A stretch of 56,444 nt of DNA, the filler included, from Squatina squatina (taxonomy: Eukaryota): assembly GCA_031763465.1 (NCBI GenBank). It is 3 parts of 3 records of this genome, joined end to end, with 100 filler letters (N's around TTAATTAATTAA, not from the genome) between each part and the next. Parts side by side here need not be neighbours in the genome. Positions count along the whole stretch, not along the records: positions 41,866 to 56,444 come from JARFOE010000194.1; 2 more parts are not named here. The stretch is one strand, 5' to 3'. The position numbers were made by a program, and so were the translations under genes. Below are positions 4,844 through 48,330 of the stretch, in pieces; the stretch's first letter is position 1; the number at the start of each line of letters is the position of its first letter. Below the pieces are notes generated by a model. The model did no database searches, was not told where the DNA came from, and was given only the letters and a program-made list of their open reading frames with translations.

Positions 4844-5002
4844 GGGGTAGGAATTATTCTTGGGCGGGAGTGCAGATTGGGTGATAATGAATCGGCAGCC
4901 CGATTCACACTCCATGGAGAAGGAAATTGGGTGGTGTGTAATACGGGCTGCTGATTCGCCATCACCTGTTTTGCGCTATCACGCAAGTTAAATTTCTACC
5001 TC
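4844..5002. mobile_element. MITE-like non-autonomous DNA transposon
   Basis: Imperfect terminal inverted repeats GGGGTAGGAATT / AATTTCTACCTC (10/12) around a locally CpG-rich interior. Confidence 0.45.
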
Positions 5003-5925: not shown

Positions 5926-6092
5926 ACAAAAGTGAAATACTGCGCATGCTGGAATCTAGAATAGAAATAAAAAATGCTGGAAAAACTCAGGTCAGGCAGC
6001 ATCTGTGGAGAGAAAAACAAAGTTAACGTTTCGGGTCGACGGCCCTTCATCAGAACTGATGCTGCCTGACCTGCTGACTTTTTCCAGCATTT
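5926..6092 (-). mobile_element. Penelope-like retroelement terminal fragment, copy 2, with internal inverted repeat
   Basis: Same family as 491-593. 6058-6092 is an inverted copy of about 5972-6003, flanking a hammerhead motif. Truncated by a gap. Confidence 0.75.
6021..6057 (-). ncRNA. Minimal type I hammerhead ribozyme motif
   Basis: Minus strand reads AGUU-CUGAUGA-A-GGGccgucgaCCC-GAAA-CGUU^AACU: intact core boxes, helix I AGUU/AACU, helix II GGG/CCC, palindromic ACGU in place of helix III. Confidence 0.7.
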
Positions 6093-14999: not shown

Positions 15000-15921
15000 G
15001 TAACCTTACCTCTGATTTAAAACACTAGAAAATGTTCACTTTACACATAGGTGATCTGTTGGAGATTAGGTAAGCTCACCCTCTAGAGTGGGAATGTCCA
15101 ACCGTCATTCTAGATTTGGCCCATAAGCTTCTTTCATTTGCCCCACTTCTCGTCATCTTGGCACTGGTAGAGTGGCAGGGGTGGGAGCATGAATGCTGCC
15201 ATCCTGAGAGAGGAAAGCAGGTTCGTGCTCCATGGAGCCAGAGCCACTGCCACTATCCCAGGCGGCACCTCGGCAATCCTACTGATCTGTTGGAGAACAG
15301 ATTGATGGACTGCTGTGAGGCCCTGGAAGCCCCTTTGAACACTGGTATCCATGATGGCAGCAGTCTGAGCTTTCACTGCAGCACGCAGACTTTTGATGGA
15401 GGCTACTTGTGCTGCAGTGAAAGCTGTGACATTGGTCATCAGATGCTGCATCGTGATGGGTTCCACAGGTGTGCTGATGGAGATGACCACTCATTCCATA
15501 TTGGAAAGAATGGGCTCCAATCTCCACGTAAAGCCCTGTGCCAAGTTAGTGCTGGACTCCTCCATGCTCCTTGCATTGAGCACAGGCTTTCCAGTGCACC
15601 AAGCACTTGGTTATGTACATCATCAGCCTTCTTCTATAACCTGGCCCATCAAAATCCTCATCTGATTCACCTGCAGCAGAACTAGTGTGTGACTTTACCA
15701 ACTGGCGAGCTGGCACCTGCACTATCTTTTTTCCCCCCGCCCTGGCTCTTACACATTTGTGCCTGGAGCCTCACCACGTGCAGATCCCTCCTTTATCATA
15801 CACACAGTGACAGTCTCTGAGCTGCTGGCTGCGCGTGTAAGATCGAGTGCCGATGTCTGTTCATCTTCACTGTCTTTTTTCTCTTCCTCCACTGACTGGG
15901 AAGGCTTCACTTCTTCAGCCC
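15000..15921 (-). mobile_element. Degenerate coding fragment, probably a PIF/Harbinger accessory (Myb/SANT) gene remnant
   Basis: GC-richer island with interrupted minus-strand frames (acidic AEEVKPSQSVEEEKKDSEDEQ..., then coiled-coil-like TAAQVASIKSLRAAVKAQTAAI...). Resemblance to shark Harbinger ORFs is recalled, not verified. Confidence 0.4.
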
Positions 15922-43831: not shown

Positions 43832-45960
43832 CTGAAATAGGATAAGAATGCAGTTTTAGAAACATTAAAAAACTACTAGGCAGACATCTGTATCAACAGA
43901 AAAGCTCTATCTAAAAGAAAAGCAAAAGCTATGAAATGATTTGAGCTCAGAAAGGTGCAAGAAATTAGGAGGTGTGCTTCACATCACTGTGGTTTGGTTC
44001 AAGTCCTAATGCTGCTAATATTCAAAAATATCCCAAAAAGTAGTCAGTTCTCAGCTAATCTACGAGATGTGATTTCTAAAAAGTAGCAATAAAGTATTTA
44101 ACCTCAGGAATAAAAATCAAATGCCACTCACTTTTTGCAGAAAGCCTACAGACTATCACATGAAAATACAAGTGTGAGCTTAGCGTTTAGCTGAAATGAT
44201 GACAATTTGAAAATCTTGCAATTGTTAGAGAATTCCCAACAAAATGAAGTAATTGTGTTAAGGCAATAATTGAAACATAAATTTTGAAAAAATATAAATA
44301 CTGGGACTGGAAGAGAAGCAAGACAATAGTTTACCAGAGTAATTTTGGATTTGTTACTGAAGGCAGCACGAACTAGAAAAAATAAATGAGGACTAACTTT
44401 TGATTGACAAAAAATCCAAAGCACAAAAGGTGAGCTGTTGAAGTGCAGCCTAGTAGGCGTTCCAGCGGAAGTGTGCATCCAACAAAGAATGATTTGCAAT
44501 AATTTGTTTATAAATTATGTTGCTGCATACTTTGTTATTTTATGGATTAATCATTCAGTATTAAAATTGTGTAAGCATCTTTCCCAAAGTTTTAAGTTTA
44601 CTGCTGGTCATAGGATACCAGATGGAATGGAAAATCACTTCAAAAAGCTAAGTAAGGATTACTGGGTAAATAGGCTGTGTGGTATGATGCTAAGTCAGAC
44701 AAACAAGAATGTTGAATTCCTGTGCATTACTAAGTTAACTCATCTTGTTTAGGGCATATCATTGGTCTCGGCACCTCTGGGCTAGGGAGAGGGAAAATCA
44801 GCCAGGCTTCCCATTTTTCATTGGAATCCAATGACCAAAGCTGGAATATACATGTGTATGTAGATGATCAGATTTGGCTGTAATACCTTCTACAAAATAC
44901 TTTACTGACCGCTCACTGTTCAAACCTGCATATGAAGAATGGTCACTTCAACAAAGTACTGCAGGGCTGCTCACACTTGCAAATCTGTATGTCNNNNNNN
45001 NNNGAACATCACCCTATAGGAGAAAATTCTGGGAGTGTAGCGGGAGGAAACCAGGCAGCAGTCAAGCCTAGCTCCGAAACAGAAATGCTTACTACATAAG
45101 TTTGGAGATGAGGCTTGGCGCATAAGATAGACAAATAAAACAATGATTTCCTTAGTGTAAAAAGTGTGGTAATTTTAGGAGCTGAAGATATAGTCCAGAG
45201 ATTCAAGTCAGATTCCATCCTGCTATATTGTATGCAGTGTTAAAACTTCTGTTTCTAGTAAAAGTAAAAATTTGTGAAACGCCTGATCCTTAGCATAGTT
45301 TAGTGATATGTTANNNNNNNNNNNNNNNNNNNNNNNNNNNNNNNNNNNNNNNNNNNNNNNNNNNNNNNNNNNNNNNNNNNNNNNNNNNNNNNNNNNNNNN
45401 NNNNNNNNNNNNNTGTACAAATGTAAGCTCAAATCAACGAGAAGCCTATGAACATCTCTGTTTCATTCCATTTAGCATTGATTATTTTGCACAATGTCTA
45501 TAATTAAAACGTTCATAAGCCATTGAACTTGCTGGTCAAAAAATCTTGATTGGCTCCAGTATCACAAAAAAACAACTGTATTTGAACAATGCAGAGTACC
45601 TCAAGTATAAATAAATAAGTAGAAAACTACTGATGAAAAATAAACAAGCAGCAAAATCATTAACGCTCAACAACTAACAAGCGAGAAAAGGCGAGCAATG
45701 AGAAACCACCACAAAACCAACCAATCAAATCACTCAAAATATGTTTCCAACATTTTTTGGAGGCCATGTTGGTTTTCAAGTCACGGATGACGATATGCCG
45801 AAAAATTAAATCTATACTATATTAAAAACATGAAACACTTCTTAAAAATATCACTAAACTTGTCCATAACGTAACTATTTTCTTTTAGAAATAACTAAAA
45901 GTTTTCACCACACAGACTTGATTCTTTCTCTGGGGTTGGGGCTTGGGTTCTGGAGCTTAC

Positions 45961-46065
45961 TGCATTTCCCTAAGCTTTCCTTCCGATGTCTTGCAAGTAC
46001 AGAGCTTGAAAAACCTGGTTGCAGTCTACGATAGTTAGGAGATGCCAAGATCTCATTTTCCTTCG
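45961..46065 (-). other. Candidate 105-nt stop-containing cassette exon within a MED14 intron
   Basis: Acceptor TTTATTTATTTCAG|, donor GCA|GTAAGC. In the MED14 frame it reads RRKMRSWHLLTIVDCNQVFQALYLQDIGRKA*. Confidence 0.45.
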
Positions 46066-47021
46066 CTGAAATAAATAAAGCAGCACAAAATTGAATTTAT
46101 TTATTTGCTGCCAAAAGAAAGAAAGAAAGAAAGTCAGGCTGCACAATTTCCTGCCTGTTCATTTTTCTTCTCCCAATTATCTCCCATTTTCTTCCTTACA
46201 ATTACTTTCCCTTCCTTCAAAACAGCTAGCACAGGAAATAAAATCCGAGGCCCAGCCACGCCAAGTGCTGCCATTTCCCAAAGTGTTCCCAGACTCCAGA
46301 CCCCAAGTCTGCCAGACCCCAACCCCATTCCTACCTTCCCTGAGTGCTTTCTAGCTTCAGACCTCAGATTACACAAAATATTCTTTATTTACTGCAATTT
46401 ATTCTCTTTTATGTTAGAATGGGTGGGATACTCCATAAATATGCAGGTGTTTCTGACCACAGAAATGTGATACTATTATTCAGGGAGATTTCATTATGTA
46501 GAATAGAATCATATAATTTTATTGCACAGTGCCTTCAACTTCGGCCCATTTCCCAAACCTGTTCCCATATGCTTTAATTTTTTCTTTTTCAACTATTTAG
46601 TCACTTCTCTTTTAAAATCTATTAATACGGATTCTGCTGTCATCAGTGTTTCTGGTGGGGAATTTCAAATCTGAACAACTGTTTAAAAAAAAACATTCTC
46701 CTAACCTTACCCTTCATTCTTTTGGTGGTGATCTTAAATTTATGCCCTCTGTTACCAACTCACTGACCAGTGAAAACAGTTTCTCCCTTTTCAGTTTAGT
46801 AAAATTCTTCATTATTCTGAAGTTAAGTCAATACATACAGCCTCGGTAAGAATAACCTTAACTGCTAAAAGTTACTATCAACTAGAAAAATCATCAGCCA
46901 ACTTATTGTTTTGTATGATTTTGATTCCTGATTTTATATTAAATGAGTTACAACACAAAGGACTTCACTATAATAAATAAAACATAACTCCTGTTCTTGT
47001 GAGCTTAGGTCAGTGGCTTAC

Positions 47022-47195
47022 CCGAATACAAGTGGGCAGGCGAGGGTATGACCCCGTAGTTAGAACATCAATAGCAAATGGAATCGCAAAGCTAGGCAGG
47101 CGAGCATGAACCAAAGCATCTCTGGCTAATGATGCCATTCGATCAGCAGTGTCCACAAAGATGAATGCCTGCTTATCCAAGAAATTTGTTATCAT
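47022..47195 (-). CDS. MED14: Mediator subunit 14 coding exon (equivalent to human exon 4)
   Basis: [58 protein letters not shown]. 174 nt, TAG acceptor, GTAAGC donor, phase 0/0. Confidence 0.96.
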
Positions 47196-47619: not shown

Positions 47620-48330
47620 TGTTGCTTTGTCGATAGATGGCGCTTGTAAACGTGTGGCCTCCTCCGCTGGCTGGTGACATCATCATCCGGGGGCTGCGGG
47701 TGATGTCCGGCCGGGGACTGAATTGTTGGAGACTTCAAGCGGCGGCGTGAGTGGAGGGCTCGGAAAAACAGATATTCATGGAATAAGAGGGAAAATGGCA
47801 GCAACAGTCCCATTCCCCTTATATTAAAAAAAGATCCAAAGACGAACAGCCAGGAGGTTACGTAGAACCAGGGCTTTTTTATTTTACATGAAAAACAGGC
47901 TGACTTTTTTGTGGGCTGGGGTAAATTTATTATTTTTGGAAAAAAATCCGATGATGGCCTTAAACAAACGGGACAAAATCCCAGAATAACCCGATTCTCG
48001 GACCTTTATATTTTTTCCACTTTGTTTAAACCCGCTCTTCACTATTTTCTTCCTCTTGTGCGTCTCGGTGTCGTCGCAGGCCATTGCGTCTGCTCTGTTT
48101 GTGCAGTTTTTTTTAATAACGCGCACCGCCGCCATATTGTTGTGTGGCTCGGTCCTGGTGAGAGCGGGGCTGGTGGTTGATGCTGATTCAGTTAAAGGGT
48201 AACAGGAAGGAATAAAACAGAAGGGGGAAATAGGGGAAAAGAAACGAAGAAGAAACAGAAGGAAGAAAAAAAATTGGGCACTCAGTTCATCAAGTCCACA
48301 CCTTGCTGCCATGTTAACACTGCCTATCAT
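47620..48330. promoter_or_regulatory. CpG-rich promoter-like region between MED14 and USP9X, with a candidate non-coding plus-strand first exon ending at 47746
   Basis: High CpG density relative to the flanks, several YY1-like motifs (GATGGCG, AAAATGGC, CCGCCATATT, GCCATGTT), and a GTGAGT donor at 47747-47752. Confidence 0.65.

What the first reader, a model, noticed from the sequence alone, without database searches (positions are those of the whole stretch)
45931..46327. Long-range RNA duplex brackets the candidate poison exon and abuts its 5' splice site
Seen: in the MED14 pre-mRNA, CUCCAGAACCCAAG-CCCCAACCCCA (45955-45931, starting at donor +6) is complementary to UGGGGUUGGGG-[ucuggcaga]-CUUGGGGUCUGGAG (46327-46294). 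That is 24 of 25 pairs in two helices (13/14 and 11/11) with a 9-nt bulge. The duplex is GC-rich in an AT-rich intron and loops out about 340 nt containing the whole exon. Established: paired complementary regions that loop out exons can promote skipping. Inference: an RNA-structure-controlled exon, possibly sensitive to elongation rate, in a core Pol II coactivator gene, i.e. a potential autoregulatory circuit. Best candidate for an undescribed system in this window.
Basis: partly seen in the sequence, partly recalled or inferred. Interest (0 to 1): 0.7.

Follow-up and report, generated by a model that had tools for sequence, protein, structure and literature searches.

The report
RNA clamp around possible MED14 exon
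An intron of a shark MED14 gene holds two single-copy complementary blocks that are predicted to pair around a possible stop-codon exon and would likely keep it skipped, a known kind of splicing control whose use and conservation here are untested.

Summary
The duplex is real as described: 24 of 25 Watson-Crick pairs, a 9-nt bulge, 338 nt between the arms, predicted pair probability about 0.99. Both arms are single-copy, so they are not the ends of a multi-copy transposon. It is the best single-copy long-range duplex in 403 kb of this genome. Chance is very unlikely by pair count (0 of 302 shuffled passes) but not excluded by energy (4 of 22). The exon is unproven: weak donor, two possible acceptors, both in frame with a TAG; such pseudo-exons fill 2.5-17% of equal-sized windows. 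No orthologous vertebrate intron was reachable, so conservation is untested. Best reading (0.42): a structure-silenced poison exon like BRD2 3b and BRD3 5b; a neutral inverted copy or chance is almost as likely (0.38). The mechanism is published, so this is not an undescribed system. Human MED14 has a low-level cryptic poison exon, apparently in the neighbouring intron. Autoregulation is speculation.

The parts
46294..46327 (-). Upstream G-rich arm (34 nt, two pairing blocks around a 9-nt bulge at 46308-46316)
   Evidence: Sequence; duplex and partition folds; single copy at up to 3 mismatches
45931..45955 (-). Downstream C-rich arm (25 nt), starting at +6 of the candidate donor
   Evidence: Sequence; single copy at up to 2 mismatches
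45961..46065 (-). Candidate poison exon, short form (105 nt, phase 0, in-frame TAG); use not shown
   Evidence: Acceptor score 6.9, donor 5.4 with a recalled matrix; translation
45961..46107 (-). Candidate poison exon, long form (147 nt, same frame and stop) from the strongest acceptor in this intron piece; use not shown
   Evidence: Acceptor score 10.8; translation
46108..46137 (-). Branch-point-like CTGAC, (TTTC)n pyrimidine tract and AG of the stronger acceptor
   Evidence: the tract is a microsatellite, so it may be fortuitous
45955..45963 (-). Candidate 5' splice site GCA|GTAAGC (non-consensus at -3, -2, -1, +6)
   Evidence: Score 5.4; sites this good occur 3.4 per kb in background
45970..45972 (-). 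In-frame TAG in both exon forms
46329..46337 (-). Second, stronger donor-like site AAG|GTAGGA just outside the upstream arm; role unknown
   Evidence: Score 8.7; 0.52 per kb in background
47022..47195 (-). MED14 coding exon upstream of the element (174 nt; residues 103-160 of zebra shark MED14; exon 4 by recalled human numbering)
   Evidence: covered end to end by one contig in each of 4 of 4 runs of related organisms with 3 differences

Best explanation
The two single-copy arms are predicted to pair in the MED14 pre-mRNA and likely keep a possible stop-codon exon inside the loop skipped, as the paired regions of BRD2 and BRD3 do. Shown: the complementarity, its rarity, the exon-like signals and the in-frame stop. 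Inferred: the upstream arm waits in the nascent RNA; once the downstream arm emerges at donor +6, the helix closes around the exon, covers donor positions +5 and +6, and favours skipping. When the helix forms late or is blocked (fast elongation, or proteins on the G-runs or C-runs), the 105- or 147-nt exon would be included, and the TAG, far upstream of the many later junctions, would send the transcript to nonsense-mediated decay and lower MED14 output. Whether this is regulated or only suppresses a nuisance exon is open.
For: Best single-copy duplex in 403 kb of N-free sequence; the only higher score is a repeat-borne hairpin, next single-copy scores 21 and 20 pairs. 0 of 173 and 0 of 129 block-shuffled passes over 130.5 kb reach 24 pairs; 0, 3 and 2 of 1000 local shuffles reach -48.9 kcal/mol. 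Complementarity stops sharply at the arm ends, as described for BRD2/BRD3. The loop holds the strongest acceptor of the intron piece with a branch-point-like motif; an acceptor-donor pair this good lies in 50 of 2034 equal windows. Published: poison exons are looped out by more stable duplexes (PMC10573301); 25% of cryptic poison exons have a flanking pair against 13% of annotated cassettes (PMC11632617). Human MED14 has a cryptic poison exon.
Against: By free energy the duplex is not extreme: 4 of 22 shuffled passes over 130.5 kb give one as strong; the pair-count measure was shaped to the observation. The 409-nt region folds at z -1.5 on the sense strand and z -3.0 on the antisense strand, and the duplex shows no strand preference (-44.6 vs -43.7). 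The loop interior has no unusual structure (z +1.4, 94 of 100 shuffles as good). The donor is weak, and with the weaker acceptor such pseudo-exons fill 342 of 2034 windows. The strong acceptor rests on a microsatellite. The helix adds only 0.5 kcal/mol to donor opening. Strong duplexes that loop out exons are depleted in human (PMC8052449). The human poison exon seems to lie in another intron and peaks at PSI 0.037.
Confidence: 0.42

Rival explanations
1. Neutral feature: a short inverted copy made once by template switching (or a chance G-run/C-run match) beside a pseudo-exon that is never used.
For: Template switching creates inverted repeats without selection (PMC5453318, passages). No strand bias and no G-U pairs inside the helices. 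The bulge lies in an 11-nt direct repeat and forms a small palindrome, which looks like local templated copying (sequence). Energy null 4 of 22. Pseudo-exons are common.
Against: No second single-copy duplex of 22 or more pairs in 403 kb, so neutral events of this size are rare. The passages read describe short-range events; 340 nt is long for them (inference). The arm begins exactly at donor +6.
Confidence: 0.38
2. The duplex is functional but not through this exon: it would shorten the intron, decide between the two donor-like sites (46334 and 45960), or clamp a nested 405-nt GT-AG unit whose ends coincide with the arms.
For: A stronger donor-like site (8.7; 0.52 per kb) sits 7 nt before the upstream arm, and an AG (score 4.9) ends the downstream arm. 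Most conserved duplexes lie inside introns without looping exons.
Against: No good acceptor lies 50-250 nt upstream of 46334 (none among the 14 best); the AG after the downstream arm is weak and its tract would be paired.
Confidence: 0.15
3. The arms are terminal inverted repeats of a decayed or low-copy transposon (MITE).
For: Inverted blocks about 400 nt apart fit a MITE's size; the assembly is gappy (60% N in fetched stretches), so copies may be hidden.
Against: One match each for both arms; a 17-nt arm motif gives 22 matches against 62 for its reversed control; the 501-nt and 156-nt searches find only this locus; no hit to 45930-46330 in 403 kb by sensitive blastn, while a nearby repeat at about 46570-46810 is detected.
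Confidence: 0.05

Closest known systems
BRD2 exon 3b with R1/R2 and BRD3 exon 5b with R3/R4 (Petrova et al. 2024, PMC10789245; abstract and whole Results section read)
   Same: A short exon that brings a premature stop, enclosed by a strong intronic complementary pair, in a gene for a transcription co-regulator; sharp edges of complementarity.
   Different: There the arms are conserved, the exons are expressed, and oligos and compensatory mutants prove control; BRD2 3b is skipped more under slow Pol II. Here none of this is shown; the duplex is stronger (-42.6 vs -29.1 and -34.3 kcal/mol, different programs) and the stop lies inside the exon.
Pairs of conserved complementary regions, energy group IV (Kalmykova et al. 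2021, PMC8052449, passages; Margasyuk et al. 2023, PMC10573301, passages)
   Same: At least 10 nt, below -30 kcal/mol, within 10 kb, intronic, looping out an exon-like stretch.
   Different: Membership needs both arms in conserved intronic regions, which could not be tested.
Human MED14 cryptic poison exon '3b', chrX:40715118-40715220 (Margasyuk et al. 2024, PMC11632617; one supplement row, parts 1-2 of 7 and passages read)
   Same: Same gene, similar length (103 nt), poison, near the 5' end of the gene.
   Different: By its name it lies between exons 3 and 4, while this candidate follows the exon recalled as exon 4, so they are probably not orthologous; low conservation score (112 of 1000), maximum PSI 0.037; the row has no column for a flanking duplex.
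Template-switch inverted repeats (Loytynoja and Goldman 2017, PMC5453318, passages)
   Same: Short, sharply bounded, single-copy inverted repeat.
   Different: Described as short-range events; no function implied.

Membership tests
Structure-controlled poison exon (BRD2/BRD3 type) | Strong complementary pair in the two flanking intron parts | tested here: met
   -42.6 kcal/mol, 24 of 25 pairs, p about 0.99; rare in background
Structure-controlled poison exon (BRD2/BRD3 type) | Canonical AG/GT exon inside the loop that brings a premature stop obeying the 50-nt rule | tested here: met
   Both forms are phase 0 with TAG at 45972-45970; many coding exons follow. Met as sequence only
Structure-controlled poison exon (BRD2/BRD3 type) | The exon is spliced in at least some transcripts | tested here: inconclusive
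   Only assembled contigs of related organisms were available; see Tried and rejected
Structure-controlled poison exon (BRD2/BRD3 type) | Disrupting the pair raises inclusion and a compensatory mutant restores skipping | not testable with these tools
   Bench experiment
[quoted passage not shown] | Both arms lie in evolutionarily conserved intronic sequence | not testable with these tools
   G000 has no relatives here; the metagenome scan returned two distant loci only; no look-alike window in the scan
[quoted passage not shown] | Compensatory substitutions or structure-probing support | not testable with these tools
   No orthologous arm sequence obtained
MITE / DNA transposon with terminal inverted repeats | Several copies with the same termini | tested here: not met
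   Single copy; the assembly is gappy
Known structured RNA family (Rfam) | Match at the gathering score | tested here: not met
   Best match mir-15, 20.7 bits against 57.3, E 0.062
Autoregulatory poison exon | The gene's own product raises inclusion | not testable with these tools
   No data; MED14 is not known to me as an RNA-binding splicing regulator (recalled)

The most novel reading that the evidence does not exclude
MED14, the scaffold of Mediator, carries a conserved, structure-gated poison exon whose inclusion follows Pol II speed, so the coactivator's own supply is tied by feedback to the transcription it drives; humans may have replaced it with a poison exon in the neighbouring intron, as BRD2, BRD3 and BRD4 did across paralogs.
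Probability: 0.1. Interest if true: 0.65.

Novelty: new member of a known kind. Interest (0 to 1): 0.3.

Why it matters
If real, it would add the Mediator scaffold to the transcription regulators tuned by structure-controlled unproductive splicing, show that control in a cartilaginous fish, and offer an unusually strong, simple duplex to test with one oligo. The mechanism itself is known, so the gain is a new case, not a new principle. I found no paper on this element in eight searches of the held library; most subscription papers are not in that library.

Tried and rejected
Expression: no RNA holder on record was listed; 8 runs guessed to be RNA, of two related organisms in two studies, shared 6-7% of the words. 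Their assembled contigs were laid at 80% likeness: the coding exon is covered in the 4 of 4 runs laid over it (depth 9-20), and 0 of 8 runs have a contig on 45804-46518. This is no evidence either way: contigs drop rare forms, and unique intron sequence is almost uncovered too (one 152-nt piece at 46816-46969 in one run). Orthologues: the metagenome scan gave two distant loci at 67-69% protein identity, one without an intron at this place and one with a short intron; the scan of prokaryotic genomes gave three chance 19-nt matches; protein searches with frames over the exon and arms found nothing or one 39% repetitive hit that I set aside; 0 of 120 listed MED14 proteins carry the candidate exon's peptide after the upstream exon (120 of 378 hits were listed). 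Rejected: a long fold-back or conserved inner structure (z between -0.8 and +1.4); a G-quadruplex in the upstream arm (not in the minimum-energy fold); a coding or Pfam role for seven overlapping frames (no match at a curated cut-off); the Rbfox-regulated mouse Med14 exon (132 bp at residue 1049, another exon). Supplements: no MED14 in 5 held files of PMC8052449 (far too small to hold its 916,360 pairs) or in 1 file of PMC10123112; those of PMC10573301 could not be read, so a human MED14 pair may be listed where I could not see it. The first three MED14 exons were not located, so the exon number is recalled, and the statement that human 3b lies in another intron is not verified.

Full report
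Setting. The window is a pack of three stretches. The finding lies in the third, in an N-free contig at 45414-47343 that maps to G000:C194. By recalled human numbering this is exon 4. The next two coding exons were not found and probably lie in gaps, so the element sits in the intron after this exon, 695-1090 nt past its donor.

Observation. The pairing is exactly as reported: 11/11 and 13/14 pairs around a 9-nt bulge, -42.6 kcal/mol for the arms alone, pair probabilities mostly 0.96-0.99, stable in a 1.1-kb context. One more G-U pair reaches donor +5. Complementarity does not extend beyond the arms.

Is it chance? Three tests differ and all are reported. Locally, 0, 3 and 2 of 1000 shuffles of a 600-nt region (global, 60-nt and 30-nt blocks) reach the observed -48.9 kcal/mol of the same seed-and-extend measure. 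Over 130.5 kb of N-free sequence, both strands, 4 of 22 block-shuffled passes give a duplex that strong at spans of 200-600 nt, which I scale to roughly 0.06 for this window. With a strict count of Watson-Crick pairs in two helices, 0 of 173 and 0 of 129 passes reach 24 pairs, and 22 pairs occur 0.05-0.06 times per pass; that measure was shaped to the observation. In real sequence, 403 kb hold four duplexes of 20 or more pairs at spans of 100-600 nt: a repeat-borne hairpin (31), this one (24), and two single-copy ones (21, 20). By energy, ten rows in 130.5 kb were stronger, all with spans of 161 nt or less. So the duplex is probably non-random, which does not yet mean selected.

Is it a transposon? 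Each arm matches once in the 1.5-Gb assembly, a shorter arm motif is not enriched over its reversed control (22 vs 62), and DNA searches return only this locus.

Is there an exon? Two acceptors precede it: 46065 (6.9, above 10 of 17) and 46107 (10.8, above 15 of 17, the best in this intron piece, with a branch-point-like CTGAC but a microsatellite tract). They give 105 or 147 nt, both in frame, both ending translation at TAG 45972-45970; with the many later junctions the transcript would be an NMD target by the 50-nt rule. Such pairs are not rare: 342 of 2034 windows of 338 nt hold one with the weaker acceptor and 50 of 2034 with the stronger (background includes real exons and this site). Use of the exon could not be shown or excluded.

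Structure and the splice sites. The donor is predicted paired, partly by a 6-bp stem inside the exon, and is more open in a nascent RNA that ends at +6. Blocking the upstream arm lowers the opening cost only from 6.0 to 5.5 kcal/mol, and the real exon's donor costs 7.1. The loop interior folds no better than shuffles. The whole 409 nt score z -1.5 on the sense and -3.0 on the antisense strand, and the duplex has no strand preference. If the duplex acts, looping-out is the likelier route than masking of the donor (inference).

Conservation. This is the deciding test and it could not be run: the genome has no relatives here, the metagenome scan gave two distant loci, protein-level detours found nothing, and the scan's notes show no look-alike.

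What is known. BRD2 exon 3b and BRD3 exon 5b are poison exons enclosed by conserved complementary pairs; oligos and single mutants raise inclusion, compensatory mutants restore skipping, and BRD2 3b is skipped more when Pol II is slow (PMC10789245, Results read). [quoted passage not shown] A table of human cryptic exons lists MED14 '3b', 103 nt, poison, maximum PSI 0.037, cycloheximide change 0.018 (PMC11632617 supplement); by its name and my recalled numbering it is in the preceding intron. The regulated mouse Med14 exon in a cortex study is a different, 132-bp exon. Eight library searches showed no paper on this element; the full human pair tables were not visible to me.

Verdict. It works most likely like the BRD2/BRD3 arrangement (0.42), with a neutral inverted copy or chance close behind (0.38; template switching makes such repeats, PMC5453318, passages), another splicing role at 0.15 and a transposon remnant at 0.05. 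These odds are my judgement from the rarity of the duplex, the modest rarity of the enclosed exon signals and the missing conservation data. It is a candidate new member of a known kind, with membership untested on conservation, expression and function. The feedback reading, in which Pol II speed sets MED14 supply, stays possible at about 0.1. Interest 0.3.

Noticed in passing
window 43833-47021 (G000:C194 about 7008032-7011220): The MED14 exons for residues 161-246 are not found in this stretch or, with that query, elsewhere in the assembly; they probably lie in the N gaps, so the far end of this intron is unseen.
   Followed up: partly
window 46334 and 45931-45930, minus strand: Both arms start 6-8 nt into a donor-like site, and the downstream arm ends in an AG, so the arms also clamp a 405-nt GT-AG unit.
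   Followed up: partly
window 45963-45980 and 46272-46289: An 18-nt direct repeat (83% identical) lies just inside each arm; chance is plausible.
   Followed up: no
window 46296-46322: The upstream arm holds an 11-nt direct repeat with period 16 and a 5-bp palindrome across the bulge, allowing a second pairing register and hinting at local templated copying.
   Followed up: no
window 46065-46126: An 11-bp A/U hairpin between the two candidate acceptors covers the second one's pyrimidine tract; it gives the weak mir-15 score and is not beyond shuffles.
   Followed up: yes
window about 46570-46810: Fragment of a multi-copy repeat, hit by many contigs of related organisms; it carries donor-like sites at 46710 and 46705.
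   Followed up: partly
window 4895-4951, 5972-6092, 15368-15425: Strong short hairpins (-54 to -60 kcal/mol); the one at 5972-6092 is part of a repeat family, the other two were not examined.
   Followed up: partly
window about 47884-48135, minus strand: An ATG-started open frame of about 83 codons upstream of the coding exon, unrelated to MED14.
   Followed up: no
L006 after 2393; L007 after 542: A distant MED14 locus has a short intron at the same position as the shark intron; another has none there.
   Followed up: no
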